A DNA stretch of 64,000 nucleotides from an uncultured Planctomycetota bacterium (GTDB lineage: Bacteria; Planctomycetota; Planctomycetia; Gemmatales; Gemmataceae): the NCBI GenBank assembly GCA_963849325.1, contig CAWKHF010000005.1, positions 32,001 through 96,000 of the forward strand, in the 5' to 3' direction. How positions within the stretch are numbered: the first letter of the stretch is position 1; each line of letters starts with the position of its first letter. A program made the position numbers and the translations under genes. This document shows positions 27,546 to 44,681 of the stretch, piece by piece. A model generated the notes under the pieces. That model worked only from the letters and a program-made list of their open reading frames with translations, ran no database searches and was not told where the DNA came from.

Positions 27546-28877
27546 TTAAGCGGGTAATCGCTGGGCAGCTTCGGTAGCCAGTAGCTGCTCCCGGAGCCAA
27601 TTCAGGGCCTTGAAAAACTCCTCGTCGCTTGGGATCACGTAATGACGATCCGCCATGTTGCGGGGAGAATCCGCGAGGAAGTGGTTGGCGTAGAACTTGT
27701 ATTGCGGATGCTGGCCCAGAATCGTCGCCGATGTCTTCCGCAGGTGCTTCATGCCGAGGCGGATTTTCTCCAGCTCCAGCTTTTCGGCAAGCCGGGTCCA
27801 TGCCGAGTGAATGCAGTCATATCGTTTCATCTTCCCATCTTCCAGCCAGAACCTGACCAGCGGGTTGCCTTCGTCAGTGGTGAGCGCCAGCTCGCCCTTG
27901 GCCCGGTGCTTCTTGAGCAGGGCGAGCGTCTCCGGCCACAGCTTGTAGGTTACGACCGGCCCGTTGCGGTCGCGTGTCTTGCTGCGGGCGCGGGTGATGG
28001 TCCCGTTCTTCCAGTTGACTTCCTCGGTCCGCAGCTCGGCGATGTCGTTCTGGTACATGCCGCAATTGAGCATGAGCAGCAGGTACAGCTTCGTCTTGTC
28101 GGAGAAGCCATCGCAGCCGGCGAGAAGGGTCCTGACTTCGACCGGGGTGAAGGTTTCGATCTTCGCAGGTGCGGAATGGTTGAAGCGGAAGCGGCGGGAG
28201 CGGATGTTGCCGGGCAGCGGGATCAGCTTCATTTCGGCCAAGCGGGAGATGAACTGCTTGGCGGTCATCATCAGCGTATGGGCGTAGGTGGGGGAATACT
28301 TGCCGGTGGCGATCTGCGTGGACAGGTAATTGAAAAAGCCTTCCAGCTTGCTCTCCTCGATGGCGTCGATGGCGGCGTCTTCGCCTATCCACGTGACGAA
28401 GTTGCCGATGTTGCGGCAGTAGGCGTCGTACCTTCCTTCGCTCATCTGGCCGGACTGACACACGCCATGCAAAAGCGTCTTCCACGCTTCGACCTGCGCC
28501 TTGACGGTACGCTCCGGCGGAGTGACCTTGGCGGTGCTTTCGATCATTGCCTCGGCCTGGACCTTGATCTTTTGGTACTGCCCGTTCCCCACCAGCGAAT
28601 CGACAATCTTCTCCCGGCTGGGCTCATCCAGCGATTGCCAGTCCTGCACCATCGACCAGACCTTGAAGGCGTTGGCCCGCAGCTCCTCTTCGGTGGGCGG
28701 AGCCGCCTCGATTTCCTTCTGCTTGTTTTCCCACCAGCGGTTGGCGGCAGCGGCGCTTTCCTCTTTCGTGTCCGGGCGTTCGAGCTGCTTGCAGGAGACC
28801 GCGTACATCTTGCCTTTGTGCTTCTTGATCCACCGGCGGGATTCGGGAATCCAGGTCATGAGGAGTCGGCGTGCCAT
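27546..28877 (-). CDS. tyrosine integrase of the tRNA-Ser element
   Basis: Adjacent to tRNA 3' end and reading away from it; NCGMYQNDI, RARSKT, KHLRKT, MADRHY. Confidence 0.85.
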   Translation of the reverse strand: MARRLLMTWIPESRRWIKKHKGKMYAVSCKQLERPDTKEESAAAANRWWENKQKEIEAAPPTEEELRANAFKVWSMVQDWQSLDEPSREKIVDSLVGNGQYQKIKVQAEAMIESTAKVTPPERTVKAQVEAWKTLLHGVCQSGQMSEGRYDAYCRNIGNFVTWIGEDAAIDAIEESKLEGFFNYLSTQIATGKYSPTYAHTLMMTAKQFISRLAEMKLIPLPGNIRSRRFRFNHSAPAKIETFTPVEVRTLLAGCDGFSDKTKLYLLLMLNCGMYQNDIAELRTEEVNWKNGTITRARSKTRDRNGPVVTYKLWPETLALLKKHRAKGELALTTDEGNPLVRFWLEDGKMKRYDCIHSAWTRLAEKLELEKIRLGMKHLRKTSATILGQHPQYKFYANHFLADSPRNMADRHYVIPSDEEFFKALNWLREQLLATEAAQRLPA

Positions 28878-29070
28878 AGGTTTTGCCCTCTTGTAAACCG
28901 TAAATGCCGCACCTTCATTCTATGGTCGCAGCCGGCAAAATCAATGGCTTGTAAACCGTTTTGTAAACCGAAAGGCGGGAAAACGGTTGGACGGGTATAC
29001 AGCATCAGGAAATGGCGATCTGCCGAGATGTGCGGATTATTGGCGTAAATCCAATGTTTTCAAGGATAAG

Positions 29071-29159
29071 CGGAGAGGGCGGGATTCGAACCCGCGGTGA
29101 GGTTTGACCCCCACACGGCATTTCCAGTGCCGCACAATCGGCCACTCTGTCACCTCTCC
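29071..29159 (-). tRNA. tRNA-Ser(GGA)
   Basis: GGAGAGG/CCTCTCC acceptor stem, anticodon loop CTGGAAA, long variable arm, GGTTCGAATCC; CCA not encoded. Confidence 0.97.
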
Positions 29160-29220
29160 GAATGATGTAACCTGCTTATTTACAAGACATTATGTCTAAG
29201 AGGTACTAACAAAATGGAGA

Positions 29221-29268
29221 GCCGCGACCGCGAGGGAGCGGGAAGAACCGCTCCCTCACGGTCGCGGC
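29221..29268. repeat. REP-like palindrome
   Basis: GCCGCGACCGCGAGGGAGCGG..CCGCTCCCTCACGGTCGCGGC. Confidence 0.75.
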
Positions 29269-29911
29269 CCTCCAAAAAGATAGAGCCTCTAATTCTTTGT
29301 ATAAACCCTCCCAGCTTTGCGATTTTGTAAACTTTTCTGTAAACTACAAGTCGGCTAGTTGGTGCGGCATCTTGTAAACCGCTCTGTAGATTGTATCGGG
29401 GGGAAGGTGAGCGAGCAATCGGACGGGAGAATGAGCCGTGGGAGTGGAGTCCACGAAGGAGTCAACGGTCGATAAGACCGACGCTCGCAAGGCAACCGAC
29501 TGCTGACGGGTGTCACGACCCCCTTGCTTCCTTCCGCGCCCTCCTGGCCCGGTGCGCCGCCGCCTTCGCCCGGCTTTGTTGCCGAACCGCCTCGTTGCAA
29601 AACCCATCCGGTCTGTTGCAAAACCGGCGGCGCAAAGAACAGGGCAGATGCGCGAGACTTTTCCTCTCGCGCATCTTTCGCCCCTGTCCTGTCGTCCCGT
29701 TTTCGCTCGAAAGGTCTCCTGTATCTCTCTTCCGCGACTCCAGAACACAAAAAAGGCAGCCAGCAGCTGCCCGGCTTTATTGCCAACTGACGTTGCTTCT
29801 CAAGCAGGCGAAATGCAGGATACGAGGCAAGGGCGACGTTACCCGGACCCGACCAGCCGCGACGAGACGGGGATGCCGGGGGAAACGCGAACTCGGAGGA
29901 GACGCGCACGC

Positions 29912-30500
29912 ATGGAGGAACCGACCAGCCAGCCCTTGCGACAGGTCGTGGAGGGCATCTATCGCTCCCAGTCGCGGCGCGTCCTCGCGACGCTGATCCG
30001 CCTGCTCGGCGATTTCGACCTCGCCGAGGAGGCCCTGCACGAGGCGTTTGCCGCGGCGGTGGAGCAGTGGCCGCGAGAGGATCGCCGAAGGACAGACCCT
30101 GGTCGAGCAGGCACTCGCGTCCGGGCGGTTCGGCGCGTACACGATTCAGGCGACCATCGCCGCGGTGCATGCCGAGGCGGCGACGGCCCCGGCCACGGAC
30201 TGGCGCCGGATGGTCGCCTGGTACGACGTGCTCGAGCAGCGCCGCATCCTCGCCCGTCGTGGCCCTGAACCGGGCCGTGGCCGTGGCCATGCGCGACGGC
30301 CCCCAGGCGGGCCTCGCGCTCATCGACTCGATCCTGGCCGGGGGGCAGCTCGCCGAGTACCACCTGGCCCACGCGGCGCGGGCCGACTTGTGCCGGCGGC
30401 TGGGGAGGACGGCCGACGCCCGCCAGTCCTACCGCAAGGCGCTGGCGCTGGCCTGACAGGAGCCGGAGCGAGGGTTCCTCGAACGACGCCTCCGCGAACC
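29912..30500 (+). pseudogene. ECF sigma factor (YciI-associated type) with large internal deletion
   Basis: LATLIRLLGDFDLAEEALHEAF..QWPRE jumps directly to C-terminal IAEGQTLV..SPVVALNRAVA; also an in-frame stop at 30454. Confidence 0.8.
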
Positions 30501-30601
30501 GGGCTCGAAAAAATATACGCGATGTCGATATCCCGCTTTCCCGAACGACTACCGCTGTGAAAGCGGCGAGAGTCCGCCGCCAAACCCGTAAGGAGGAAGC
30601 C

Positions 30602-30964
30602 ATGAAATATCTGTTGCTCATCTACACCCCGGAAAATTCCTGGACGCCAGCCGATCGGGAAAAGTGCTTTGCCGAGTCCACCCAGCTTAGCCACGAACTC
30701 CATTCCACAAAGCAGTACCTGGGAGCCGCGCCGCTCCATCCGGTCGCCCTGGCCACGAGTGTTCGGGTGCGGGACGGGAAACGTGTCATGACGGACGGAC
30801 CGTTCGCCGAAAGCCATGAGCAGCTAGGCGGTTTCTTCGTGATCGAGGCCGGACACCTCGACGAAGCCATTGACATCGCCGCACGTATTCCCGGCGCCCG
30901 CAAGGGCACGGTGGAAATCCGGCCGGTCCTGGATCTGCCGGGACTTCCGGACGTGAAATCGTGA
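30602..30964 (+). CDS. YciI family protein
   Basis: MKYLLLIY, TDGPFAESHEQLGGFF, GTVEIRP. Confidence 0.9.
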   Translation: MKYLLLIYTPENSWTPADREKCFAESTQLSHELHSTKQYLGAAPLHPVALATSVRVRDGKRVMTDGPFAESHEQLGGFFVIEAGHLDEAIDIAARIPGARKGTVEIRPVLDLPGLPDVKS

Positions 30965-30998
30965 TCCATTGTTCTCTTCGCTGGAAAGGAAAAAACTC

Positions 30999-31430
30999 AT
31001 GCAATGGGAAAGTTCGCCCCCATCCGTTTCCCGGGGCGCCCTGTGGACGGGAAGGGCCCTGAGCACCCTGCCGGCCCTCTTTCTGCTGTTCGACGGGGCC
31101 ATGAAACTCGTGAAGCCGACTCCCGTCGTGGAAGCCACCGTTGAACTGGGTTTTTCCGAACAGGTGATTTTTCCGCTCGGGATCGTCTTGCTGGCTTGCA
31201 CCATCCTTTACCTGCTCCCGCCCACGGCCGTTCTCGGGGCCATCCTGCTGACCGGATACCTGGGCGGGGCGGTCGCGATACACGTGCATGCCGGGCACGG
31301 TCCGTTCCGGGTTATCTTCCCGGTCCTCTTCGGCGTCTTGCTCTGGGGGGGGTTGGTGTTGCGCGACCGGCGATTGCGCCCGCTCGTGCCCTGGCGGCGC
31401 GGCGTGGAAGGCCGGCCGGAGGCGACGTAG
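30999..31430 (+). CDS. DoxX family membrane protein
   Basis: LLFDGAMKL, LGAILLTGYLGGAVAIH. Confidence 0.88.
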   Translation: MQWESSPPSVSRGALWTGRALSTLPALFLLFDGAMKLVKPTPVVEATVELGFSEQVIFPLGIVLLACTILYLLPPTAVLGAILLTGYLGGAVAIHVHAGHGPFRVIFPVLFGVLLWGGLVLRDRRLRPLVPWRRGVEGRPEAT

Positions 31431-31519
31431 ACCCGAAAAAGCTTCGCGACGTCGATTCCACCCGGACTCGTTCGACAAGGGGGTGGAGATCGAATTCCTG
31501 CTCGAACCAGGGAGCCCCC

Positions 31520-31931
31520 ATGCAAGTAAATCCGTATCGGATGTTCGCCGGCCCGTGCGAGGCCGCGTTTACGTTCTACGCGAAGTGTCTGGGCGGCCAG
31601 ATCGAGGCCATGCTGCCGCACGAGGGCACGCCCGCGGCGGAGAACGTGCCGCCACCGTGGCGCAAAGAAAATCCTTCACGCCTGCCTGCGCCTGGGCGAC
31701 GGGGTGCTGATGGGTTCCGATGCCCCGCCGACCTACCAGGAGAAACCCCAGGGCTTCTCCCTATCGATCCAGGTGAAGGATCCCGCCGAGGCGGAACGCT
31801 GCTTTCACGCTCTGGCCGAAAACGGCACCGTACGCATGCCGATTCAGGAGACCTTCTGGGCCCTCCGGTTCGGCATGCTCGTCGATTCGTTCGGCATCCC
31901 GTGGATGATTAACTGCCCTCGACCCGGATGA
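31520..31931 (+). CDS. VOC/PhnB-like protein, frameshift near 31670
   Basis: MQVNPY..CEAAFTFY; LMGSD, TFWALRFGMLVDSFGIPWMIN. Confidence 0.85.
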
Positions 31932-32051
31932 ACGGGGCCAGTTCCGACCCGGCGAAACTGGCGCGGAGCGAAACCGGCCCTTTCTCGCCGGGTCGAGACC
32001 CTCGCCAAGCCCTCGGTTGAATTCGGCGGATGAGTCTGCATCCCCGTCGGG

Positions 32052-32391
32052 GCCGAACGTCACAGATCAGGTAGCCCATTCGATGGTCGCCGTGGGGCGA
32101 TACATTCCAGGTAAAAGCTTGGAGAGAGCCGAGCGTTGAAGTGCCGAGGAGGAGTAGTTGGCGAGTCGCCGAGAGCAGGGTAGTCGGTAGGCACGGTGGG
32201 TCAGACGGTGGCACGGAACAATTGCGACCATTGGGGTCGCAAAGGAGCAATGACCGTGCGCACCCAGCGTGCCGGCATCCTCACCAAAATTGCTCTTGCA
32301 TTGCTTAGAAAAGCAGCCGGGCGGCCAGGAGGGACTGCATGTCGCGCGAAACCAGAATGGCCGCCCGGTCTGCTGAAGCGGTTTGTTCGGC
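32052..32391 (-). other. attC site split by a 243-bp insert
   Basis: Minus strand GCCGAAC-AAACC-GCTTCAGC..CCGGCTGCT | insert | GATC-TGTGAC-GTTCGGC. Confidence 0.75.
32071..32313. mobile_element. ORF-less 243-bp insert flanked by AG cores
   Basis: Removing it restores an attC; same position as the IS1111 insertion; nested stems 32190-32273. Confidence 0.65.
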
Positions 32392-32397
32392 CCTCCG

Positions 32398-32862
32398 CTA
32401 CCCGATCAAAGATGCTTTCCCTCTGAATTTCCGCTCTGGCCCGAGTAGAAGCGAGATGCCGTGCCCAGCGAACAGGTCGCCGCACGAGTAATACCAGGAC
32501 GCGCTGCCGTCGTGGTACAGGTTGATCCCACTCGGGCGGATGTTGGCCAGGAACTCTGCCCGGTTCATGGGCGGGGTGCCCTCTTCGGGATCCTCGTCCG
32601 CCCACACCTCGTTGTAACAGTTGAGTAGGTCGTCAGCCACCCTCGCCCGGACTTCCGGTTCGGCCTCTCGTGCCCAGGCGAGGTACTCGGCGCCTACCGT
32701 GAACAACTCGGCCGGCTCGGCTCCCGCCCACTCAGCCTCGGCCACGATGGAGAAGCTGAGCGGATACCCAGGGACCAGTTCGACTTCGGTCCCCCAGGAG
32801 TTCACCCGGTCGTCCCACTGAATCTGACCCAGGACAGGGTGATTGCGTGTCCGCTTGGCCAT
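32398..32862 (-). CDS. cassette gene, DUF2262-like
   Basis: Stop 6 bp from attC; GDLFAGHGI motif; GGAGG RBS. Confidence 0.7.
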   Translation of the reverse strand: MAKRTRNHPVLGQIQWDDRVNSWGTEVELVPGYPLSFSIVAEAEWAGAEPAELFTVGAEYLAWAREAEPEVRARVADDLLNCYNEVWADEDPEEGTPPMNRAEFLANIRPSGINLYHDGSASWYYSCGDLFAGHGISLLLGPERKFRGKASLIG

Positions 32863-33027
32863 CAGAGCCTCCGCTTCCACCACTATGGCTATCCGTCATC
32901 TGTGCTATCCGGCACCCAACGACAATGCTCGACTGCCGAGTTGGATGGGGCGCCGCAAGCCGAACCCCATCGTGCCGGCCTGGAGACCAGTCCGGAAGCA
33001 AAACGCACATGGGCGAGGGGTCAAGTG

Positions 33028-33124
33028 GCCGAACGACGAAGCTCACCTGCCCGGCGGGCGCTGGGAGCGATGACCCTGGAACAGCCTCCATGCCCGCCGG
33101 GTCAGGTGCAGCGCCTGGTTAGCC
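33028..33124 (-). other. intact attC (97 bp)
   Basis: GGCTAAC-CAGGC-GCTGCACC..CCCGGCGGGC..GCCCGCCGGG..GGTGAGC-TTCGTC-GTTCGGC. Confidence 0.88.
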
Positions 33125-33196
33125 GAAATCATAGCGACTGAAAGACCAAGGTGGAATCCACTTTCAGGATTGTGCCGTTGACGCTTCCGGCTCGGG

Positions 33197-33655
33197 CTAC
33201 AACCTGGCCGAGCGAACCGTCCGGCGCTTGAGCGTCCCCTCCACCACAATCCCGAGTTTGGAAGGAGCGCCCTTTCCTACTGTCGCGGCCACCAGTTCGC
33301 CATCGATCAAAAGGTGCACGCGTCGCCACACATACCATTCTCTGTAACCCACTTCGATCGTGTGTCCCCCAGACTGAAGAAGAAACCAGCGGTTGGATAG
33401 CGCGTAGCAAGACAGAACGGAGTCAATCGAGATCCGGCACCGGCAGCCCCAGCCGACGCGAACATGCACCGGATGGTTATCCCTGCCGGCATGACCAGCT
33501 TGCGCCGTCAGCGCGATCGGGAGGAGATGCCAGCCGCGCTGTTCGGCCGCTAAAACACCATCCAGATACAGGCGATCCCAAGGGTGGGAGTCGCGCCGCA
33601 TTTGGATGTGCGCCTCGTGCCCTTCCCACCGATAAGTCCACTCAATAACCGACAT
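33197..33655 (-). CDS. cassette gene, hypothetical
   Basis: Between GTTAGCC (33694-33688) and complementary GGCTAAC (33124-33118). Confidence 0.7.
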   Translation of the reverse strand: MSVIEWTYRWEGHEAHIQMRRDSHPWDRLYLDGVLAAEQRGWHLLPIALTAQAGHAGRDNHPVHVRVGWGCRCRISIDSVLSCYALSNRWFLLQSGGHTIEVGYREWYVWRRVHLLIDGELVAATVGKGAPSKLGIVVEGTLKRRTVRSARL

Positions 33656-33797
33656 AGTTGCGATTACGGTGAAGAACGTCCAGCATCGGCTAACACCAAG
33701 CTCAGATGGGGATGATGCCGGGTTGCTCCCACCGACGACAAGCCGGCGGTATTATGGAGTAACCCAGTAAAAGCCACCCCATCTGGAGCAACCCGAC

Positions 33798-34811
33798 ATG
33801 TCCACCACTCTACCACTGTTCGTCGGACTGGACTACTCCCAACACGCCGTCCAACTGTGCGTCTTGGACCCCACGGGTCAGGTCTTGTGTAACCGCGCCG
33901 TGCCTGACTCCGCCGACGCCATCGATCAGGCCGTCCGGCGATTCGGTGCCGTCCGCGGCGCCGCCCTGGAAGCCTGCACCGGAGCCGCCAACCTCGCCGA
34001 AGAACTCGCCGACCGCTACGCCTGGCCCGTCCACCTCGCCCACCCCGGATTCGTCAGCCGCATGAAGCAGTCGCCCGACAAAACCGACTTCTCCGACGCC
34101 CGCGTCCTGGCCGACCTCGAACGGGTCGGCTACCTACCCCGCGTCTGGATTGCACCCCAGCAGCTCCGTGAACTCCGTACCCTGGTCCGCGACCGCCAAC
34201 AACTGGCCGCCCAGCGACGCAATCTCAAGCTCCAGATCGGTGCCCTGCTACGGGAACACCGCCTACGCTGTAGCCACAACCGCTGGACGCGGGCCTGGCA
34301 CGCCTGGCTGGAGCATCAAGCTCAACTGCCCGAACAAGCACGCTGGGTCATGCAACAACGCCTGCGTCGGCTGGCCTGGATCGTCCAGGAGATCCGCACC
34401 GTCGAAGAACGTCTCCAACAAGTCACCGCTGTGGACGGCACCGTAACTTGGCTGCGGACGATCAAGGGCATTGGTCCGGTCACCGCCTGGACGTTGCGGG
34501 CCGAGATCGGTCGCTTCGACCGTTTCCGAACCGGCAAGCAGTTGGCGCGGTACTGCGGCCTGACGCCGTGCAACCGCTCCTCGGGCGTGCGTGAGGCCGA
34601 CGCCGGTTTGATCCGGGCGGCCAATCCCGAACTGCGTCGCGTGCTCATCGAGGCGGCCTGGCTGTTGGCTCGTCTGCAGCCGCGTTGGCGGCAACTGGCC
34701 GAGCGTCTGAAGGCACGGGGCAAACCGAGTACGGTGGTGATAGCGGCCGTGGCCAACCGCTTCGTGCGTTGGTTGTACCACGAAGGAGTCCGCCAACAGG
34801 CGGCGGCCTGA
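33798..34811 (+). CDS. IS110 family recombinase/transposase
   Basis: FVGLDYS, LEAC, KTDFSDA (DEDD); IKGIG, YCGLTPCNRSSG. Confidence 0.95.
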   Translation: MSTTLPLFVGLDYSQHAVQLCVLDPTGQVLCNRAVPDSADAIDQAVRRFGAVRGAALEACTGAANLAEELADRYAWPVHLAHPGFVSRMKQSPDKTDFSDARVLADLERVGYLPRVWIAPQQLRELRTLVRDRQQLAAQRRNLKLQIGALLREHRLRCSHNRWTRAWHAWLEHQAQLPEQARWVMQQRLRRLAWIVQEIRTVEERLQQVTAVDGTVTWLRTIKGIGPVTAWTLRAEIGRFDRFRTGKQLARYCGLTPCNRSSGVREADAGLIRAANPELRRVLIEAAWLLARLQPRWRQLAERLKARGKPSTVVIAAVANRFVRWLYHEGVRQQAAA

Positions 34812-34835
34812 CGGATAGTGACAAGGCGTTGTCAT

Positions 34836-34990
34836 TGTCGGGGAAGTTCCTGAGCGGTTGCGGGTGTGCTCGGCCGGCTGCTGGGGTTTAATCCTCGCGC
34901 TCAGATGGGGCAGCCCGCAACCTTTCTTCGCATCCCATTTGGGCAGGGTCTTGAACCCACGCTCGGATAAGAAGCATGGGAGCCCCGACA
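34836..34990 (+). ncRNA. candidate bridge/seek RNA
   Basis: Outer stem TGTCGGGG/CCCCGACA; inner stem GGTTGCGGG/CCCGCAACC enclosing two junction-matching segments. Confidence 0.75.
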
Positions 34991-35427
34991 GCGTTGGCGT
35001 CCTGCCGAAGATTTCGCCGCCTCCGTGCGGCGACCAGGGGCGCTGATTGCCGCCCCCTGGACCCCCGGCTAGCCTCTCTCTGTTCCGGGAGGAAGAGAGG
35101 AGACTAACGCCGAGAAAAGGTGATTTTCCTCTTGACGAGTGGCCTGGCATCATAGAAGCAGCCGGCTCACGCGGAATTGGCGTTATGACTCGGAGAGCCG
35201 CCTATCGCGTGGCCGGTCTGCTGCAGCGCCTGGTTCGCATCCTCGCAGGGTTCCCCTGCACCACAATGCCAGGAACTTGGGGCGAGACTCGCTTATCCTA
35301 CCTCCGGTGTCCGGTGTCGATGTCCGACATGCTTCTGGTGCTGAGAGGCTTTGCGCTCCGCCCGCTGGTTCGACTGGACCGGGGAGCGATTTTCGGCCCA
35401 CTCGTTTGGTGACGACCGCCTACGGCC

Positions 35428-37180
35428 TTCGACGCCGTCGCGGTCGATCCCGTTGGGACGGCTGGTGCCCGTGCCGACTCCCCCACCGGACACCCTGGTT
35501 CCCCAATCCCCCTATTGTGGAGGCTCCCGTGTCCGACTGCAAGACCCCACCACGCGACGCCCGTAAACCGCAAACGCCATCGGTGGCCGCGACCGCCAAC
35601 GAACTACGCCGCGCCGCCCGCCACGCTGAAAAGACCCGACGTGACGCCCAGGAGTGCGCCAAGCTGGTCTCGATGCCGGTGCAGCATGCTCACGCCGCCG
35701 GCATCGACGCTGGCGACGTCAGCCACTGGGCCTGCGTCGAATCCACCCCCGACGACAGCGACGCCGTCCGCGAGTTCCCCGCTCATACCGCCGGGCTGCG
35801 GCAATTGGTCGCCTGGCTACGCCAATGCGGCGTCACCACCGTGGCCGTGGAGGCCACCGGCGTCTACGCCCACGTCCTGTTTTTGACTCTGCTGGAAGCC
35901 GGCTTCGTGGTGGTGATGACCGCACCGCAGTTTGCCCGCCAGATCAAGGGCCGGCCCAAGACCGACAAGCGTGACTGCCAGTGGATTCAACGCCTGCACA
36001 AGCACGGCCTGTTGCCGGCCATCTTCCAGCCCGACGAGGCCACCCAGACCCTGCGCGACTACGTCCGCCAACGCGCCAACCTGGTCCGCCTGTCCGGCCA
36101 GCACATCCAGAGGATGCAGAAGGCGCTGCAACTGATGAACCTCAAGCTGACCGGCGTGCTGGGCGACGTCACCGGCGTAACGGGGCTAAAGATCATCCGG
36201 GCCATCCTCGCCGGCCAACGCGACCCGCAGCAACTGGCCAGGCTGCGCGACCGCCGCTGCCGGCACAGCGTTGCGGACATCGCCCAGGCGTTGGATGGCC
36301 GCTATCGCCCCGAGCATATAACCGAGCTGCGCTGTTGCCTGACCTTGTGGGAGAAGTATCAGGAGGTGATCGGTGAGCTGGACGAAGCCATCGACGCCCA
36401 CCTGCGGAGCATGCGTCGGCAGACCGCGTTGCCCCCACTGCCGCCCAAGCCCCGCATGCGTGGCCGCAAGCCGCACGACCCACGCTTTGACGTGCGCCAG
36501 GCGTTGTACTTGGCCACGGGCGTAGACCTGACGGCGATCGAAGGCATTGACGAGGTGCATGCGTTGACGTTGGTCAGTGAGCTGGGTTGGGACTTCACGA
36601 AATGGCCGACGGTCAAGCAGTTCACCTGCTGGCTGGGGCTGTGCCCCAACTGGCACAAGACCGGGGGTAAGGTGCAAGTCCAGCGCGACGCGTAAGGGCA
36701 AGGGGCGTGCGGCGCGGACGTTGTGTTTGGCGGCCTGGAGTCTGATGCGGAGCAAGAGCTATTTGGGAGCCTATCTGCGTCGTCAGCGTTCGCGTCTGGG
36801 TGCGCCCAAGGCGATCACGGCGACGGCGCACAAGCTGGCGCGGATCGTGTACCACTTGGTGCGTTACGGCATGGCCTACGTCAAGCAAACGGAGGCGGTC
36901 TACGCCGAGCAGGTGCGGGCGCGTCTGGAGAAGCAGTTGCGTCGTCGTGCGATGGAGCTGGGCTTCGAGCTGCGGAAGGTGGAGGCGCCGCCGATGCCGG
37001 CGGTGACCTAGATTCGCGTTGGCGTTGGCAGTCATTGACAGTGAGGTGAGACGGAAACAGCGGAGAGGACAAGGGCGAAGGGCGGAAGGGAGCGGAGACG
37101 GTGCGCGCCGGCGGAGGCCCATCGCAGCAGGGAGCTACGTCACCGTCGCGTCACCTTCCGAGGAAGTTCCTGGGGCGGCC
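35428..37180 (+). mobile_element. second IS110 family element (ends tentative)
   Basis: CGGCC at 35423-27 and 37176-80; removal leaves palindrome TACGGCCGTA. Confidence 0.5.
35530..37011 (+). CDS. IS110 family transposase, frameshift near 36675
   Basis: HAAGID, VEATGVY, KTDKRDCQWI, WLGLCP, KAITATAHKLARIVY. Confidence 0.92.
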
Positions 37181-37344
37181 GTATTCTCTGACCCGGCAAG
37201 CCATTACGGCCTGAAGAGACCGCGAACCTCTCTCTTGAGCTGCGCTGCCTTTCCCTCATACTTGGAGTACGAATACAACCAACCTTTGTATTCTCCGAAA
37301 CTAATCCGGCCCTCCTCCTCGTCAACGTCGAGAGGATTCATAGA

Positions 37345-38673
37345 CTCAGTAGTTTCCGGTGAGTGTGAATTATGATACCATTCCCCAACTCATTCATACA
37401 TCCGATGTTCCGTGGCGATTTCATCGTGGATTCCCAAATGGGCTTCGGCCCAGTGTTGCAACCACACCAGCATCTTGCGAAAGCTCAAACGCCCCAGGTC
37501 GATCCGCCGACCGCCTCGCTGACGACGCGCCAACACCTGCCCATGCAACCACACCCAGACGTTGCGCAAGAGCAACGCCACCCCCACGTACAACAAACGC
37601 AGCAGCGGATCGCGCGTACACGTCCGAATCCGCGCCTGGTGCATCTGACGGTAACTCGTCTCGATGGCGAACCGACTCCGGTACGTCTCCTTCACCCACG
37701 TATACGACGACGGACGCAACGGCCCACCGAAGGCATAGACCAACGCCTCACGACCATGCCGTCCACGCTCGCCCCGCCGGTTGCGGCACTTCACGCACAC
37801 CGCGAACCGCGCCCGACGTTTGCTGGCATTGGTCATGGTGTACTGCCCCCAACCGCTCCGCTTGCACCCGGCGAAGACTCGGCTGCCCGAAGGCCCCTTG
37901 GGGTGGTCAGCCTTGCGGCCCCGCAACACCAACGGCATCAGCCACGCGTAGCGGGCGCTTTGCAAGTAGCGGATGACGTCCACGCTGCAAAACCCCCGAT
38001 CCAGCAGCAGATAACGCGGTCGGACACCGCCCTGGGCCGCTTGCCGCAACAGGCGTTGCAGCACGACGGGTAAGGCATCGTGGCGGTTCACCGTCGTCAG
38101 GGCAACCGTGAAGCGTCGTCCTTTGCGGAGGACGTAGGCGGTGGCGTAGGCGTGGAAGTGGCTGGTGCCACTCTTGGCCTGGCCGCGATAGATCTCGTCG
38201 GGTTGGTGCAAGGGTTTGCCGTGGTAAGGCAGCAGGGTGAGGTCAATGGCCAGGGGTTGGCGATGGCGACGTAAGGCGTGGGGCAGGTCGCCTTGCAGGG
38301 CGCGGTTGAGCCGGCGTTGTAATTCGGCGTAGGTGGGCAGGGTGGCCAGCAAGGCATCGTGGGCGGCGCTGTCGGAGGGAGCATCGCGGAGGGTGGCGCA
38401 GGCAGCGGCCAGGGAGATGATGCGGCTGGCGGCATAGAAGAGGACGGTCCACAGGGTATCGGTGGTGCATTTGCGGCCGTGGTCTGGCAGGCGGAGATGC
38501 TTTTGGATGCGCCAGGCGGCGTGGGCCTGGACGTGGGCGGGGGTGAGGGTATACTGCCGAGGTCGCATGGCTTCCTCCTGAAATGTCCTTGGTAGCACAA
38601 GTCATTATCAGGAGGAGCCTTGCGATTGCCCTCTACACCTTTTGTCGTTCCGCCCGAACCGGAAACTACTGAG
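37345..38673 (-). mobile_element. ISH3-like (IS4-related) insertion sequence
   Basis: Perfect 16-bp TIR CTCAGTAGTTTCCGGT at 37345-37360 and 38658-38673; no clean TSD. Confidence 0.88.
37390..38568 (-). CDS. DDE transposase, ISH3-like
   Basis: AIDLTLLPYHG, LLLDRGF, YRSRFAIETSYR. Confidence 0.9.
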   Translation of the reverse strand: MRPRQYTLTPAHVQAHAAWRIQKHLRLPDHGRKCTTDTLWTVLFYAASRIISLAAACATLRDAPSDSAAHDALLATLPTYAELQRRLNRALQGDLPHALRRHRQPLAIDLTLLPYHGKPLHQPDEIYRGQAKSGTSHFHAYATAYVLRKGRRFTVALTTVNRHDALPVVLQRLLRQAAQGGVRPRYLLLDRGFCSVDVIRYLQSARYAWLMPLVLRGRKADHPKGPSGSRVFAGCKRSGWGQYTMTNASKRRARFAVCVKCRNRRGERGRHGREALVYAFGGPLRPSSYTWVKETYRSRFAIETSYRQMHQARIRTCTRDPLLRLLYVGVALLLRNVWVWLHGQVLARRQRGGRRIDLGRLSFRKMLVWLQHWAEAHLGIHDEIATEHRMYE

Positions 38674-38868
38674 GCTAGATGTCGAACGGTGTCGATCCAG
38701 TTTATCGGGTCGAGGTCGAACTCAAGGTTAAAGAATCCGAATAGGTCGCGCAACGCCACTTTCCCCAAACTGCGTGGCCGTGATTGGTCTGGCATACGAG
38801 TAGTTCCTCGTTGAGCGAGAGGTCAGCATCAGGTTCAGCCGCTCTCACGTCATGGGCAGCCCTCCGTG

Positions 38869-38887
38869 GCCGAACAAGTGATTAGGG
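38869..38887 (-). other. attI site
   Basis: CCCTAAT-CACTT-GTTCGGC, same layout as attI1 CCCTAAA-ACAAA-GTTRRRY; upstream of and divergent from intI. Confidence 0.7.
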
Positions 38888-39165
38888 TGCGCGCGTGCCC
38901 TAATTCGGAACCCTTGTGCCAGGGGTATTCGGCGCAAAGGATTTCCCTGGCAAGGGTCGCCGCATTTACCACCGCCGTTATCTCAATATTAGGGTGTGCG
39001 CCTAAGCAGGTGCTTAGGGCGCGCACGCCCTAAGCCGGATTGAAACCCCACGGTGTCTCGCCGTCAAGCGAAATCTTAACCCGTGCCGTTTTTTTTCTTT
39101 CCTCCGTGTCTATCCAGGCGTACACTCCTTCTTCAGGACGCATTTTCCACTTTGCGGAGTGTCTC

Positions 39166-39630
39166 ATGTCCACACCTCCTTCCCCTCCTCGACTCCTCGA
39201 TCTCGTCCGTCCGGTCGCCCAGACACGCTTCGGCCAGGACGGACCTGGAGAACGCTACGCTTGTTGGACGCGCTGCCTGATTCTCTTTCACGACAAACGT
39301 CATCCCCGCGACCTGTCGCCCGGCGACGTGGGGCGTTTCCTCGAACACGTCGCGCAGACCGAAAAAGATGCCTTGAATGCTCTGGAAGAAGCCCATACCG
39401 CCCTGACCTTTCTCTACCGCGACGTTCTCGGCCTGGCCATCGGCGAACTGCCCTGCCCCGAGCCGCCGCGTTTGCTCGATCGCCTCCGCCGCGCTTGCCG
39501 CGTTCGTCAATACTCGCCCCGTACCGAAGACTGTTACACCGAGTGGGCCACGCGCTTCATCCGCTTTCACGGCCTGCGTCATTCCAACACGCTCACCGTC
39601 CGTCACGGCAAGGGCGCGGGGTCAGGTTAA
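39166..39630 (+). pseudogene. intI: integron integrase remnant
   Basis: PRLLD..W..FHDKRHP, then PRLLD..RQYSPRTEDCYTEW..FIRFHGLRH, fused to LTVRHGKG and stop; catalytic boxes absent. Confidence 0.82.
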
Positions 39631-39646
39631 ATTCTCTCGAAAAGAC

Positions 39647-39736
39647 GGAAAACCACGAATCACACGAATGAAAGAAAAGGCAACATTTCTCGGGGGTTAT
39701 TTTTATTCGTGTTATTCGTGTTATTCGTGGTTTTCC
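39647..39736. repeat. inverted repeat with 9-nt subrepeats
   Basis: AACCACGAATCACACGAAT..ATTCGTGTTATTCGTGTTATTCGTGGTT. Confidence 0.8.
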
Positions 39737-39754
39737 TCTTTATTGTGGTGGTTC

Positions 39755-41066
39755 TTAACTTCCCTTCAGCGAATTGAACACCAACCCACTGAGCAATTTC
39801 GGATAGAAATACGTCGATTTGGGCGGCATCTTCTCCAGGTTGCCGGCGATCTGCTCGACGTGGTGCATCGTGGCCGGCGGCACCAGCACGGCCAACTTAC
39901 AATCCTTCCGCACCACCGCGTCCGTCACCTCGCGCAGCAGATGCACGTACTTGCATTCGGGCTTGCCGCCAACCGTCTGCGGCAGCAGATGGTCGAGCAC
40001 GGCGACGTGCAGAACGCTGACGGCCAGGCCGCGCCAGGCGGCGCTGTGGTCGGCGGCGTGCTCGGCCATCAGCTGCCGGCGTGCGGAACCGCGCCGTCTG
40101 CCAGACGCCGTCGGCCACGGTGCCGAAGCCGAGCAGCTCCTGCGAGCCGTCCGCCTCGATCAACTCCCAGGTATCGCGGGCGCCCTGCTCGCCCTGACCG
40201 ACGCGCTCAAGCTGGAAGTGCTGGCCGAGGATCGCGGCCAGGCGGTCGGCGGTCACGTCGGGGAGGCCGGAGACGAGGCGGTGCGTCGGCAGGATGATGA
40301 GGCCGGGATCGCTCATGCTGACGAGCATCATCAGGATGAAATTCGCCGCGGCCTCGTCGTCGCGGACCTCGCCGGCGGCGCGGCGCTCTTCGAGGTAACG
40401 CAGGCCGGTCTCGTAGCGGTGATGGCCGTCGGCGATGAAGACCGGCTTGGGACCGAGCAGGCCGGTGACGGCGCTGACGACGTGCTGGTCGGTCACCGGC
40501 CAGAGACGGCTGACGACGCCGAGGTGGTCGGTCGCTTGCAGCGGCAGGCTGCGCGAGACCAGGGCGTCGAGGTGCTGGATGACCTCGTCGCCGGGGTCGG
40601 GGTAGAGGCCGAAGACCGGGCTGAGGTTCATGCCGGTGGCGTGGAACAGCCGTAAGCGGTCGGCCTTGGGGCCGGCCAGCGTCTCCTCGTGCGGATAGAT
40701 GCGGCCGGTGCCGAACGGCTCCAGGCGAACGCGGGCCAAGAAGCCGCGGCGCGTGTAGCGGCGGCCCTCGACCTCGAAGTCCTGGTAGTAGACGTACAGG
40801 CCGCGGGCCGAATCTTGCACGAGAATGTCGTCGCGCTGCCAGTCGCGCAGGAAGCGGGCGGCGCGGCTGTAGCGGTTGTCCGTCTCGTTGTCGCCTGGCT
40901 CCTCCTTGTTGAGGATGAGGCGGATGACGTTGTAGGGGTTTTGGTCGTAGAGGGCTTGCTGCAGGGCCGGGTCGATGACGTCGTAGGGCGGGGCGATGAC
41001 GTCGCTGAGGGCGCCGACGCGGCCCAGGTCGTAGCGGAAGGCGCGGAACGCACGAACGTCGGCCAT
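39755..41066 (-). CDS. DUF1015 family protein, frameshift near 40075
   Basis: APPYDVI, IYPHEET, IADGHHRYET, MPPKSTYFYPKLLSGLV. Confidence 0.9.
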
Positions 41067-41079
41067 ACATTCTCTCCGA

Positions 41080-41215
41080 TTCACCACCCAGACACAAAGA
41101 ACCCAAAGCCGGCAATGAAGTGAGTATATAAAAGAGGATGGCAACGACGGCGCCTCGATCCCATGCGCCCGCGCGATGGGTTCTTCCTTTGTGTTCTTTG
41201 TGCCTTGGTGGTGAA
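41080..41215. repeat. inverted repeat with 9-nt subrepeats
   Basis: TTCACCACCCAGACACAAAGAACCCAAAG..CTTTGTGTTCTTTGTGCCTTGGTGGTGAA. Confidence 0.75.
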
Positions 41216-41220
41216 CGCTT

Positions 41221-41915
41221 ATGAGCGTGGATGCACTGGCCGAACGGCTGGCCGCCGTGGAAGATCGGCTCGGCGCCGCCTGCCGCCGGGCCGGCCGAGC
41301 GCGCAACGAGGTCACGCTCATCGCCGTGACCAAGACCGTCTCCGCCGACGTCGTCGCCCTGCTGCCGGGCCTGGGCGTCCACGATCTCGGCGAAAGCCGG
41401 CCGCAGGAGCTATGGCACAAGGCCGCCGTTGCCGCGGCGTCCGCTGGCACCTCATCGGCCACTTGCAGCGCAACAAGATCGAGCGCACCCTGCCGCTGGT
41501 GTCGCGCATTCATTCGGTGGACAGCCTGCGCTTGCTCGGCGCCCTGGAGACGATGGCGGAGAACCTGGCGCCAGTCCAACCTCTACCCGTGCTTCTGGAA
41601 ATCAACGTCAGCCGCGAGGCGAGCAAGCACGGCTTCGCACCGGAAGAGGTGGACGGCCTGGCCGCCGCCGTGGCGGCGTTGAAACACGTCCGCGTGGACG
41701 GACTGATGACGATGGCGGCCTACGAGGAGGACGCGGAGCGGACGCGGCCGACGTTCGCGGCCTTGCGGGAGCTGCGCGATCGGCTGTCGGCGACGCTGCG
41801 CCGGCCGCTGCCGCACCTGTCGATGGGCATGAGCAACGATTTCGAGGTCGCCGTCGAGGAAGGGGCGACGATGGTGCGCCTGGGCACGGTGCTGTTCGAG
41901 GGGATTGGCCCATGA
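41221..41915 (+). CDS. yggS: YggS PLP-binding protein, frameshift near 41440
   Basis: LIAVTKT, WHLIGHLQRNK, GLMTM, LSMGMSNDF. Confidence 0.92.
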
Positions 41916-41938
41916 TCGCGGTCAATGAAGAAAAAATG

Positions 41939-42058
41939 AACCACGGATAACACGGATAACACGGATAAAAAAGACAAAAAATATTGAATGAGATGGAGTT
42001 ATTTGGCTATTCTTTCGTTTGTTATATTTCATCCGTTTTATCCGTGTAATCCGTGGTT
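41939..42058. repeat. inverted repeat with 9-nt subrepeats
   Basis: AACCACGGATAACACGGATAACACGGAT..ATCCGTTTTATCCGTGTAATCCGTGGTT. Confidence 0.8.
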
Positions 42059-42097
42059 TTTCTTTTTTCTCTCTGTGTCCACCTCCCTGGAGGCATC

Positions 42098-42899
42098 GTG
42101 TCGGAAAAGCAGAGTCCGCAAGTGGGTGAAAAAGCCTGGCTGGCCCTGGTATTGGCGCTGGTCGCCGGCTGTATCGACGCGGTCGGTTACATGGTCCTTC
42201 TGAAGCTGTATACCGCGCACATGAGCGGCAACAGCGTCGGCGCGGCCGTTTACAGCGGCGAAGGCAAGGGAGGCCAAAGCCTTCGAGCGCGCCTTCCCCA
42301 TTCCGGTGTTCGTGCTCGGCGTGGCCGCCGGCGCCACCCTGAGCGAAGCCTTGGCCCGCCGCGGCCTGCGTCGCATCTTCACCGTGGCCGTCACGCTGGA
42401 GGCGGCCTTGCTGCTCGTTTTCCTGCTGTGCGGCGGCTCCGCGTTGCGTGACGGCGCTCTGCCCGAGGAGCCGGCCTGGCGGTTTTACCTGCTCGTCGCC
42501 CTGCCCACCCTGGCGATGGGCGTTCAGAACGCCAGCCTGCGCCGCGTCGGCGGCGTCACCGTGCGCACCACCTACATCAGCGGCATGCTCACCAACTTCG
42601 CCGAGCAGACGGTGCAATACCTGTTCTGGCTGCGCGACCACTGGGCCGAACATCGCGGCCGGCCGGCGGCCCTGCTCCGGCTGTCCCTGGAGCAGCCGCC
42701 GTTCGGTCATTTGTCGCTGCAATTGAGCATTTGGCTGGCCTTCGTCCTGGGTGCGATCCTGGGAGTGGCGGCCACGCTGCGCTGGGGTCTGCTGTCGTTA
42801 GCAGTGCCCATCGCTTGCCTGGGTATCGTCGCTGTCTGCGATATGCTGCGCCCGATTCATCCCCCGCGCCAGGAGGAGTCCAAGCCCGACTGGACGTGA
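42098..42899 (+). CDS. YoaK/DUF1275 membrane protein, frameshift near 42280
   Basis: AGCIDAVGY..AHMSGN; AMGVQNA..TTYISG. Confidence 0.85.
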
Positions 42900-42916
42900 A
42901 GCCGTTCGCCGCGGCG

Positions 42917-43585
42917 CTACTCTTCCTCGAAGGAATCCGTCGGCCGGAAGAAATCGGTATCCGGATGCGGAGGCGGCGTCCCGGTGATGTCGGTCCTGGC
43001 GTCGGCTCGGCGGCGCGGAGCGGCCTCCCGAACGCGCGGCGGACGGAAGGCCGGGGTGTAACGGCGCGTCACGAAAGACAGGACCAACCCGACGGCGAGT
43101 CCGGGGATGGTGCCGAGCAGGCAGCGGTCGGCGCCCAGCAGCACGCCCGCGACGAACGAGCCGAGCAGACCGGCGACGAACACTAGCAGGACCGCCCGCA
43201 TTCCGTGGCGCGTCATCCCGTAGGCCAGCACGCCGAAAAACGCCGCCGCGCCAACGAGGAGCAGGCTGCCCAGCGCCGCCGGCACGAGCAGCTCTCCTAC
43301 TTCACGGCCGCCTAGCCCCAGGAGGGCGCCGCCGACGAGACCGAGCGTTCCCAGAAACAGAACGCCGTCGGCCGCGCCAACGACCGCGCCCTGCGCGACG
43401 GGCGACAGCTCCCGCTCTCCCGTCCGGACGAACGCCTCCACCACCTGCCGACCCAGACGGGTGCCGGCCATGCGTCCGCTCTGCGCGAACAGCGCTCCCG
43501 TCAGCGCGCCGAAGGCACCACCGAGAAGGGATCCCCCACCGGCGCCGCTGACTATCCAAAGGCCGATCCGCAGCCGCTCGTCCAT
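42917..43585 (-). CDS. hypothetical membrane protein
   Basis: GGAGG RBS; several Gly-rich TM segments. Confidence 0.7.
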   Translation of the reverse strand: MDERLRIGLWIVSGAGGGSLLGGAFGALTGALFAQSGRMAGTRLGRQVVEAFVRTGERELSPVAQGAVVGAADGVLFLGTLGLVGGALLGLGGREVGELLVPAALGSLLLVGAAAFFGVLAYGMTRHGMRAVLLVFVAGLLGSFVAGVLLGADRCLLGTIPGLAVGLVLSFVTRRYTPAFRPPRVREAAPRRRADARTDITGTPPPHPDTDFFRPTDSFEEE

Positions 43586-43784
43586 GTCCCATCCTCCGCG
43601 GGGATTGTACCGGATGTGCCGTTCGGGACGAACACGAGCATGGCCGTCCGCCGGGAGAGATGAAAGATATTTTATCCAGCGCTCATGCTTGCTTCAGCCG
43701 GCTCGGGTATGCTGCGGGGCATACGGTGACGGCCCGTCAGGGTGACGGCTGCCGTCGAATGCGGTCCCCAATCAGGAGAGCACG

Positions 43785-44681
43785 ATGCAACGATGGCGTG
43801 GTTGGCTGGTGGCGAGTCTCGTCGCGGTTGGCTCCGTGGCCTTCGCCGTTGCGGAGGACCAGGAAGGGAAGGTGTCGCTTGACAAAGTGCCCAAAGCGGT
43901 CCTGGATGCGGTCAAGACCAAGTACGCCAAGGGAAAAATCGTGGCCGCCGAGTTCGAGACGGAAAGCGGCACCAAGCTGTACAAACTGGACGTCAAAGTC
44001 GGCAATGCGGAATTGGAGGTCAAGGTTCGGCCCGATGGGAAGATCCTGAGAGTGGAAAAGGAAATCGCCCCGGACAAGCTGCCGCCAACGGTTCGGAAAG
44101 CGTTTGCGGCGAAATTTCCCGGAAAGCACATCAAGAAGGTTGAGCAGATCGAACAACGAGGTCTCGTCCTCTACGAGATCGAATTCTACCTGCAAGGCAC
44201 CAGCGGCAAGGACAAGGAAGTGATGTTCACGGCCGAAGGAAAAGAGGCCACCGTCGAAGAAGGCGGCGAGATCGAGGTCCCGGTGGCGGAACTGCCCAAG
44301 AAGGTTGTTTCCGCCGTGAAAGCCCTGTTCCCGCACGGCGAACTGACCAAGGGCGAAAAGGAAAAACTGGACGAGGAAATCGTCTACACGGTTGTGGTCA
44401 AAGACAAGGGCAAGCCGGTCGAAGTAACCCTCAACGGCGAAGGCAAAATCCTGGAGGTGGAAAAGGAGGTCGCCGCCAAGGACCTGCCGAAGGCCGTGGT
44501 CGAAGCGCTCCGGGCCAAGTATCCCAAGGCTGCGATCGAGGAGGCGGCGGTGGAAATCAAGGGAGAATCGAAAGTCTACCGGGTGTCGTTGCTTACCGCG
44601 GACAAGAAGAAGGTGGATGTGAAGCTCGATGCCGGCGGCAAAATCCTGATCGAAGAACGCAAGGACAAGAAGAACGATTGA
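43785..44681 (+). CDS. secreted PepSY-like repeat protein
   Basis: Signal peptide; four (L/V)PxxV..GK(I/E) repeats. Confidence 0.8.
   Translation: MQRWRGWLVASLVAVGSVAFAVAEDQEGKVSLDKVPKAVLDAVKTKYAKGKIVAAEFETESGTKLYKLDVKVGNAELEVKVRPDGKILRVEKEIAPDKLPPTVRKAFAAKFPGKHIKKVEQIEQRGLVLYEIEFYLQGTSGKDKEVMFTAEGKEATVEEGGEIEVPVAELPKKVVSAVKALFPHGELTKGEKEKLDEEIVYTVVVKDKGKPVEVTLNGEGKILEVEKEVAAKDLPKAVVEALRAKYPKAAIEEAAVEIKGESKVYRVSLLTADKKKVDVKLDAGGKILIEERKDKKND

What the first reader, a model, noticed from the sequence alone, without database searches (positions are those of the whole stretch)
32052..32391. ORF-less 243-bp element inserted at the same attC nucleotide
Seen: this attC is broken at GATCAG|CAGCCGG, again with AG on both sides (32069-70 and 32312-13). 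The insert has no transposase, lacks the neighbour's ATGATGCC IRs, and folds into nested stems (GGCACGGTGGGT/ACCCAGCGTGCC, GCACGG/CCGTGC, TTGCGACC/GGTCGCAA). The site matches 10 of 11 nt of the neighbouring IS guide. Inference: a non-autonomous IS110-type miniature element, possibly with its own structured RNA, or a deletion remnant of another attC-targeting IS. The L boxes of the rejoined attC pair imperfectly, so the halves could come from two sites.
Basis: partly seen in the sequence, partly recalled or inferred. Interest (0 to 1): 0.72.

Follow-up and report, generated by a model that had tools for sequence, protein, structure and literature searches.

The report
Orphan right end of RNA-guided transposon
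The 243-base insert is the severed right end of a full-length RNA-guided jumping gene found elsewhere in the same genome, sitting exactly where that element normally lands in an integron cassette site; it was likely put there by the element's own enzyme acting on one end only, a behaviour already reported, so it is a tidy example rather than a new kind of mini-element.

Summary
Observation confirmed; interpretation partly. Window 32071-32313 is the last 243 bp of a 1767-bp IS110-family element on contig C7 (242/243 identical; not the neighbouring IS). That parent has a 432-aa DEDD recombinase, sub-terminal inverted repeats and a right-end bridge RNA whose guides co-vary with target and donor ends across relatives. 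The fragment starts at an internal AG inside the predicted donor-binding loop. It lacks the target loop and the left end, but keeps a terminal hairpin, one inverted repeat, a -35 box and the right donor arm. It is not a MITE: one solo copy here, and relatives' solo right ends differ in length (77, ~92, ~186 bp). The flanks rejoin to a normal 97-bp attC. One relative's 77-bp piece also abuts an attC arm at the core, which random deletion would rarely give. Best reading: one-ended, recombinase-driven transfer (partial circle or direct transfer) into an empty attC (~0.5); rivals are in-place deletion started by the recombinase (0.3) or ordinary deletion (0.12). Partial-circle reinsertion is in a 2026 preprint. 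The scan had no note on this DNA; notes on other genomes describe similar right-end pieces.

The parts
32052..32070 (-). Short (19-bp) arm of the attC, ending in the AG core on the + strand; distal R/L end on the cassette (-) strand
   Evidence: pairs with 32314-32391 when rejoined; model positions 1-19
32071..32313 (+). Terminal 243 bp of the right non-coding end of an IS110-family element whose full copy is at G000:C7:287247-285481
   Evidence: 242/243 identical to C7, 221/243 to L031, 209/243 to L064
32072..32078 (+). Predicted donor guide of the bridge RNA (reverse complement of the parent's first 7 left-end bases); the fragment begins one base before it
   Evidence: guide reads AGCCCA where the left end is TGGGCT and AGCCAA where it is TTGGCT
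32082..32136 (+). Rest of the predicted donor-binding loop: inner hairpin, second donor guide (AAAAG, 32113-17) and orphaned 3' strand of the closing stem, whose 5' strand is missing
   Evidence: (helices 5-7)
32187..32276 (+).
   Evidence: z -4.0 here; z <= -2.5 in 6 of 9 relatives folded
32274..32283 (+). Right sub-terminal inverted repeat of the parent (partner GGGGATGCC is in the missing left end)
32296..32301 (+). Outward -35-like box TTGCAT; 17 nt from TATAAG of the left end in the predicted full circle, with no -10 partner in this locus
32306..32313 (+). Right donor arm and AG core, exact end of the parent element
32314..32391 (-). Long (78-bp) arm of the attC
   Evidence: 51.0 bits, E 1.2e-12
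32398..32883 (-). Cassette gene (DUF2262) whose attC is interrupted

Best explanation
The insert is the last 243 bp of a full-length IS110-family element present on contig C7, placed at that element's normal AG landing point in an attC site, and it likely got there by one-ended transposition by the element's own RNA-guided recombinase. Shown: identity with the parent's right end, an exact right terminus, an exact left junction at the target core, and a start at an internal AG of the parent. Inferred: the recombinase, supplied in trans with its intact bridge RNA, engaged only the right donor arm (the 'RD' arm by guide order), joined it to an internal AG to give a partial circle (or transferred that end directly and resolved at the internal AG), and inserted it into an empty attC that matches the parent's target guides at 13 of 14 bases. 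Predicted outcome: a dead-end plug that encodes no complete guide RNA, splits the L box, and would block cassette recombination at this last attC of the array.
For: Parent in the same genome: 242/243 identity; the one difference (position 2) is T here, as in 7 of 7 closest relatives, and G in C7. The left junction is exactly at the core, and a 77-bp right-end piece in G104, found by its right terminus and not by its junction, also abuts an intact attC arm at or within one base of the core; its flanks rejoin at 43.3 bits. Both junctions use only a 2-nt overlap although longer direct repeats with the left flank were available: 7 nt in the C7 copy for this site, 8 nt in L031 and L064 for G104's. 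10 of 15 family right ends tested are followed by an attC right half at E<0.001. Literature: partial circles keeping one terminus, no similarity at the other boundary, preference for the RD side, and reinsertion (10.64898/2026.08.14.744561, sections 9-10); donor-flank resealing about 34-fold rarer than donor joining (10.64898/2026.08.31.748434); RD junction transferred first in a direct pathway (10.1101/2025.10.25.684509, passages); ISPpu9 end mutants recombine at unexpected AGs (PMC12288879 Discussion).
Against: No second copy with the same boundaries, and no empty or full allele of this site in 10 genus relatives. No run holds the junction. G104's parent is not assembled, so its internal AG is inferred from 2 of the 14 full-length right-end rows of alignment A2. 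AG occurs about 115 times in the parent, so an AG overlap alone is weak. The genome has ordinary deletion debris of IS110 elements, including a left-end-only piece of this family. The mechanism papers concern IS621, CazIS110, ISPpu9 and mixed natural elements; three are preprints; the RD/LD assignment here is my inference.
Confidence: 0.5

Rival explanations
1. In-place loss started by the recombinase: a full element first inserted at this attC, then the enzyme cut at the left junction core and the break was joined to the internal AG (or the right end duplicated in tandem and the first unit excised), leaving the same scar.
For: Gives an identical sequence and explains core precision equally well. 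Full elements of this family do sit at this attC position (L024, L031, L064 left junctions). An earlier AI note in another genome describes a tandem duplication of an IS1111-type right end (e1-780204; untested).
Against: Needs resealing of chromosomal flanks, which was minor for IS621 and not detected for ISEc11 or CazIS110. No tandem right end among the family loci examined.
Confidence: 0.3
2. Ordinary recombinase-independent deletion of a full element that happened to end at the core.
For: Decayed IS110 pieces with imprecise ends are common here: a 138-bp left-end piece at C7:458385, a roughly 15-bp right-end piece of another family in an attC at C12:1471990, and microhomology-like joins on both sides of the C7 parent. 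2 of 3 other right-end pieces are imprecise.
Against: A random left breakpoint lands within one base of the core about once in a thousand (my estimate, assuming 1.5-2 kb of possible positions), yet G104 gives an unselected second case; longer microhomologies were not used.
Confidence: 0.12
3. A true non-autonomous miniature element (MITE-like, as MITEPpu9) that spreads as a defined 243-bp unit.
For: AG on both sides, a precise target and a stable hairpin; MITEPpu9 shows that IS110 satellites exist.
Against: No left-end sequence or left repeat; the first bases are the parent's internal donor guide. One solo copy in G000 by BLAST and by covariance model. Solo pieces in relatives are 77, ~92 and ~186 bp. 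14 of 14 G189 and G010 loci are full elements.
Confidence: 0.05
4. Assembly artefact joining part of the C7 repeat into an attC.
For: The genome is 85% complete with many frameshifted genes; no independent reads span the junction.
Against: The insert carries the family-consensus T where the assembled C7 copy has G; both joins fall on the biologically exact core; G104 shows the same architecture.
Confidence: 0.03

Closest known systems
Partial IS110 circles and their reintegrants (Hu et al., bioRxiv 10.64898/2026.08.14.744561; part 1 of 7, passages, sections 9 and 10 read; Fig. S10 not seen)
   Same: Sub-element piece keeping one true terminus, other boundary unlike the donor arm, no transposase needed in the piece, RD side kept (by my guide-order assignment).
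   Different: Their partial circles were most prominent in expanded elements; here the parent is a compact 1.77-kb element with a right-end bridge RNA and the target is attC. No circle and no second insertion of the same piece were seen here.
IS1111-attC group (ISKpn4, ISPst6, ISPa25; PMC11187229 passages and section 9 read; Tetu & Holmes 2008 and Post & Hall 2009 seen only as reference entries, the former not held)
   Same: Parent has sub-terminal repeats, a long downstream non-coding region with two target-matching segments, and inserts at one fixed nucleotide of attC sites.
   Different: Parent recombinase is 432 aa, below the NCBIfam IS110 cut-off (113 vs 140 bits) and at most 30% identical to anything in PLSDB; repeats lie 14-28 nt inside the ends; relatives with other guides sit in REP-like palindromes. 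Clade membership not tested.
ISPpu9 / MITEPpu9 (ssr9 module; PMC12288879 abstract, introduction and first part of Discussion read)
   Same: Transposase-free piece from the 3' side of an IS110 element at the element's own target, AG core on both sides.
   Different: ssr9 is flanked by near-copies of both IS ends, has 8 copies and a detected circle; this piece has one end, one solo copy and is a cut fragment of the bridge-RNA region.
Bridge RNA of IS621 / IS1111 group (PMC11208160, passages read)
   Same: Two stem-loops with internal loops carrying target and donor guides, in the right end; promoter predicted across the circle junction.
   Different: The insert holds only part of the donor loop and no target loop.

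Membership tests
MITE / non-autonomous IS110 satellite (insert) | Both termini of the autonomous partner present | tested here: not met
   Right end only; left boundary is internal parent sequence
MITE / non-autonomous IS110 satellite (insert) | Several copies with the same boundaries at independent sites | tested here: not met
   1 solo copy in G000 (85% complete); solo pieces elsewhere are 77, ~92 and ~186 bp
MITE / non-autonomous IS110 satellite (insert) | Paired terminal or sub-terminal inverted repeats | tested here: not met
   Only the right repeat, 32274-83
Partial-circle reintegrant of an IS110 element (insert) | Keeps one exact terminus of a full element | tested here: met
Partial-circle reintegrant of an IS110 element (insert) | Other boundary internal and unlike the donor arm | tested here: met
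   Starts GTAGCCC; parent left end starts TGGGCTA
Partial-circle reintegrant of an IS110 element (insert) | Sits scarlessly at the core of a guide-matching target | tested here: met
   Rejoined site 97 bp, 64.8 bits; 13 of 14 bases match the family target guides
Partial-circle reintegrant of an IS110 element (insert) | Same fragment at independent sites, or an empty allele in a sister strain | tested here: inconclusive
   No second site; no syntenic relative among 10 genus genomes
Partial-circle reintegrant of an IS110 element (insert) | Circle detected, dependent on the recombinase | not testable with these tools
   No raw reads of this organism offered
IS110 family, IS1111-type (parent on C7) | DEDD and Transposase_20 domains in one protein | tested here: met
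   PF01548 33.8 bits and PF02371 46.9 bits, both over cut-off; NF033542 below cut-off; hits IS621 and ISCro4 structures
IS110 family, IS1111-type (parent on C7) | Right non-coding end much longer than left | tested here: met
   About 383 nt against 85 nt
IS110 family, IS1111-type (parent on C7) | Sub-terminal inverted repeats | tested here: met
   GGGGATGCC left, GGCAT(C/T)C right, across family members
IS110 family, IS1111-type (parent on C7) | Bridge/seek RNA in the right end with guides that track target and donor | tested here: met
   Two-hairpin consensus, 97.2% of cells paired, 8 of 39 pairs with changes on both sides, 0-1 of 500 shuffles as high on four of five measures (structure derived from the same alignment); guides change with targets in G189, G010 and L045. 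Expression not shown.
IS110 family, IS1111-type (parent on C7) | Recombinase falls in the IS1111 clade | not tested
   No curated reference set was at hand; no tree built
Integron attC site (flanks) | Complementary R boxes and L boxes with an extrahelical base in a single-strand hairpin | tested here: met
   Rejoined DNA fold -32.0 / -29.4 kcal/mol, R boxes paired, one bulged base in the L stem, one mismatch
Integron attC site (flanks) | Lies just after a cassette gene in an array | tested here: met
   DUF2262 gene ends at 32398 on the - strand; further sites at 33028 and 35154
Integron attC site (flanks) | Cognate integron integrase | tested here: not met
   Only an N-terminal piece at 39040-39630; 0 of 15 matches over the TIGR02249 cut-off in the 85%-complete assembly
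Integron attC site (flanks) | Recombined by IntI | not testable with these tools
   Needs an assay

The most novel reading that the evidence does not exclude
RNA-guided IS110 recombinases routinely fire off transposase-free right-end pieces of arbitrary length into their exact attC target. These small plugs carry no IS gene, so annotation misses them, yet they lock integron cassettes in place; the pieces are a natural record that a half-matched donor can be integrated at a fully matched target, and the raw material from which IS110 satellites such as MITEPpu9 arise.
Probability: 0.3. Interest if true: 0.5.

Novelty: new member of a known kind. Interest (0 to 1): 0.27.

Why it matters
If made by the recombinase, it is a natural case of a one-armed donor integrated at a correct target, the mirror of the half-matched-target events that cause off-target edits with bridge recombinases, and it gives a defined 243-bp substrate to test. 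It also shows that attC sites can be knocked out by short gene-free inserts that IS annotation overlooks. The parent is an apparently unnamed, divergent IS110 lineage with readable guides for attC or REP-like targets. None of this is a new kind of system.

Tried and rejected
Rfam on 28000-44000: no match over the insert among 18 listed at E<=1. Neighbouring IS (33704-35160) as parent: no similarity of the insert to it at any useful E-value; different ends. ISPpu9-like module: no copy of the parent's ends at the internal boundary. Recombination at the DNA encoding the donor guide: it is inverted relative to the true left end and would cut on the other side of the guide, so it does not fit. Slippage at the target-guide direct repeat would leave about 285 bp, not 243 or 77. 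Exact-motif scans: 75 of 91 loci were chance hits (62 metagenome, 29 genome). Covariance-model search of 151 family genomes and DNA search of 267 order genomes found no further solo pieces (only the top 2-3 candidates per genome were scored in the DNA searches, and most genomes are incomplete). A pattern for 60-90-bp plugs found 0 of 252 genomes and also missed G104's known piece because of a one-base variant, so it is uninformative. A survey with the neighbour's right end returned mostly a shared hairpin motif: 30 loci, 1 not re-aligned, no clear solo right end in an attC. Sequencing runs: 21 listed, all with 5-6% of words; 7 distinct runs laid hold only relatives, none spans the junction. 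One RNA contig covers the donor-loop region of a related full element, too weak to show expression. The RNAalifold consensus of the terminal hairpin showed little covariation because the alignment is poor there; single folds were weak in 3 of 9 relatives. No sigma-70 promoter in 31900-32500. Paper searches found no description of right-end-only IS110 pieces in attC sites, but Tetu & Holmes 2008 was not held and may describe such pieces.

Full report
Observation. The insert, the two AGs and the stems are as described. With the 243 bp removed, the flanks make a 97-bp site that scores 64.8 bits over all positions of an attC-like model built from this genome. That model came from 5 seed sequences (7 of 12 candidates were dropped by my trimming pattern, and one seed is a fragment); it did not include this site and finds 38 of 58 listed hits at E<0.01. 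The site follows a DUF2262 cassette gene on the minus strand and is the last of a short array (further sites at 33028 and 35154) that leads back to a truncated integron integrase at 39040-39630. No full integron integrase is in the 85%-complete assembly. The one L-box mismatch also occurs in two other left arms that run straight into CAGCC, so it does not require two sites, though a hybrid cannot be excluded from a 19-bp arm.

What the insert is. BLAST of the genome gives one other copy, at C7:285723-285481. There it is the end of a 1767-bp element (C7:287247-285481) with a 432-aa DEDD/Transposase_20 protein. Identity is 242/243. The odd base is T in the window and in 7 of 7 closest relatives (L031, L064, L049, L068, L033, L059, L050) and G in C7, so the source was a sister or ancestor of the C7 copy, or C7 carries an error. 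Two exact-motif scans gave 91 loci, of which 16 match the element: 9 with transposase, 2 cut by contig ends, and 5 that are three distinct right-end-only pieces. More distant full elements are in G189, G010 and G200; 14 of 14 G189 and G010 right-end loci are full-length.

Anatomy of the parent's right end. Twelve right ends fold into two stem-loops with large internal loops: 97.2% of cells paired, 8 of 39 pairs with changes on both sides, slid controls 32-48% (the structure was derived from this alignment, and I removed three predicted pairs that lie in the guide segments). The first loop holds two segments that track the insertion site: CGGCTGCT and CAGCTCAG where the flanks are attC arms, CAACCCT and AAGCCCAG in G189 where the flanks end in AAGCCCAG and begin GGTTG, and a shifted pair in L045. 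The second loop holds AGCCCA where the left end begins TGGGCT and AGCCAA where it begins TTGGCT. This is the bridge-RNA layout described for IS1111-type elements (PMC11208160 passages; PMC11187229 section 9). A -35-like box at the right end and a -10-like box at the left end would be 17 nt apart in the full circle. The 243-bp piece starts at alignment column 120, after the 5' strand of the donor stem (columns 99-114): it has lost the target loop and half the closing stem, so it cannot encode a whole guide RNA (inference). The site matches the parent family's own target guides at 13 of 14 bases; the neighbour's 10-of-11 match shows only that both elements aim at the same nucleotide.

How it arose. 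The final sequence cannot separate insertion of a fragment from loss in place. What stands out is precision. The left join is exactly at the target core and at an internal AG of the parent. G104 has a 77-bp right end joined to an intact attC arm at or within one base of the core; it was found through its right terminus, so it is not selected for that. L034 (~186 bp) and G101 (~92 bp) are not core-precise. Longer direct repeats between left flank and element (7 nt in C7 for this site, 8 nt in L031 and L064 for G104) were not used, which argues against slippage. By guide order the kept end is the RD arm (my inference). Recent work reports partial circles that keep one terminus, prefer the RD side and can reinsert (10.64898/2026.08.14.744561; supplement not seen), copy-out excision with flank resealing about 34-fold rarer and half-match reactions (10.64898/2026.08.31.748434, parts 1-3 of 6), no regenerated target for ISEc11, a direct pathway in which the RD junction moves first (10.1101/2025.10.25.684509, passages), and use of stray AGs by ISPpu9 end mutants. 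I therefore put one-ended transposition into an empty attC at 0.5, recombinase-started loss in place at 0.3, ordinary deletion at 0.12, a true MITE at 0.05 and artefact at 0.03. Against the leading view: two precise cases only, one of them selected; no repeat of the same boundaries; no sister allele; no reads across the junction; about 115 AGs in the parent; and ordinary IS110 debris in this genome.

Likely effect. With the insert in place the minus-strand fold keeps the R boxes paired but opens a multi-branch loop inside the L box, so the site would probably no longer recombine. This is predicted, and may be moot if the strain has no integrase.

Comparison and novelty. It works like a partial-circle reintegrant and is a member of no MITE family: both-ends and multi-copy tests fail. 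It differs from MITEPpu9, which has copies of both ends, 8 copies and a detected circle. The parent meets the tested IS1111-type features but is divergent (at most 30% identity among 39 plasmid records; below the NCBIfam cut-off), and its clade was not tested. Seven paper searches found no account of right-end-only pieces in attC, but the main IS1111-attC paper was not held. The scan's index had nothing for this sequence; word look-ups gave unchecked notes on similar right-end pieces in other genomes and on integrase-less attC clusters in this genome.

Verdict. Real and now explained as to identity; the mechanism is probable, not shown. New member of a known kind; interest 0.27.

Noticed in passing
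window 33700-33711 and 34899-34910: The neighbouring IS carries in its right end an exact 12-bp copy of its own left junction (target arm, core and first six IS bases), overlapping its target guide; a ready site for internal deletion or for a module start.
   Followed up: no
G000 genome-wide: At least four IS110 lineages sit in this genome's attC-like sites, at the left L box (neighbour, 4 copies; the parent studied here) and at or next to the right L box (elements at C4:315k/C7:285k and C7:540k/C12:880k); some sites hold two.
   Followed up: partly
window ~35226-37176 and G000:C1:446138-444191: A further IS110 element begins with bases that look like the attC's own right arm; its C1 copy starts with the same bases but lies among 37-bp direct repeats that look like a CRISPR array (recalled resemblance). 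Either its end mimics attC or it captured that piece.
   Followed up: no
G000:C7:287500-283600 (L001): Nest of three IS110 pieces. The parent's left flank is a short attC-like arm fused to a fragment of a neighbour-type transposase; its right flank runs into the start of another IS110 gene. The C7 copy also departs from family consensus in a guide and two stems and has a shorter left end.
   Followed up: partly
G000:C7:458385-458520: Left-end-only 138-bp piece of the same family (85% identical), preceded by an attC-like arm and followed by a degenerate attC-like right arm: an imprecise remnant of the opposite polarity.
   Followed up: partly
G000:C7:285480-283700 and C4:315235-317040: IS110 transposase of about 600 aa with a C-terminal Cys/His motif resembling a primase-type (CHC2) zinc finger; the name is recalled, not scanned.
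   Followed up: no
G189:C11 ~388-391 kb and C15 ~40-43.6 kb (L013, L107, L116): Pairs of the related element inserted facing each other about 160-200 bp apart, one in each arm of a REP-like palindrome pair.
   Followed up: no
L158, L160, L174 (G114, G108, G005): Another element end (…CTTCATAG) joins attC-like sites further out, near the R box: a third target position in this family of bacteria. A transposase was detected upstream in L158 and L160 but not in L174.
   Followed up: no
window 39040-39630: Integron integrase reduced to its N-terminal part; ISH3-like and IS110 elements lie between it and the cassettes.
   Followed up: partly
window 29910-31931: The genes left of the array (a TPR-containing, sigma-factor-like gene and a PhnB/VOC gene) are frameshifted or internally deleted, as are several transposases: decay or long-read errors.
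   Followed up: no
L031 right flank; L059 right flank: Full elements with an attC arm on the left but a non-attC or quickly diverging right flank, further signs of one-sided events in this family.
   Followed up: partly
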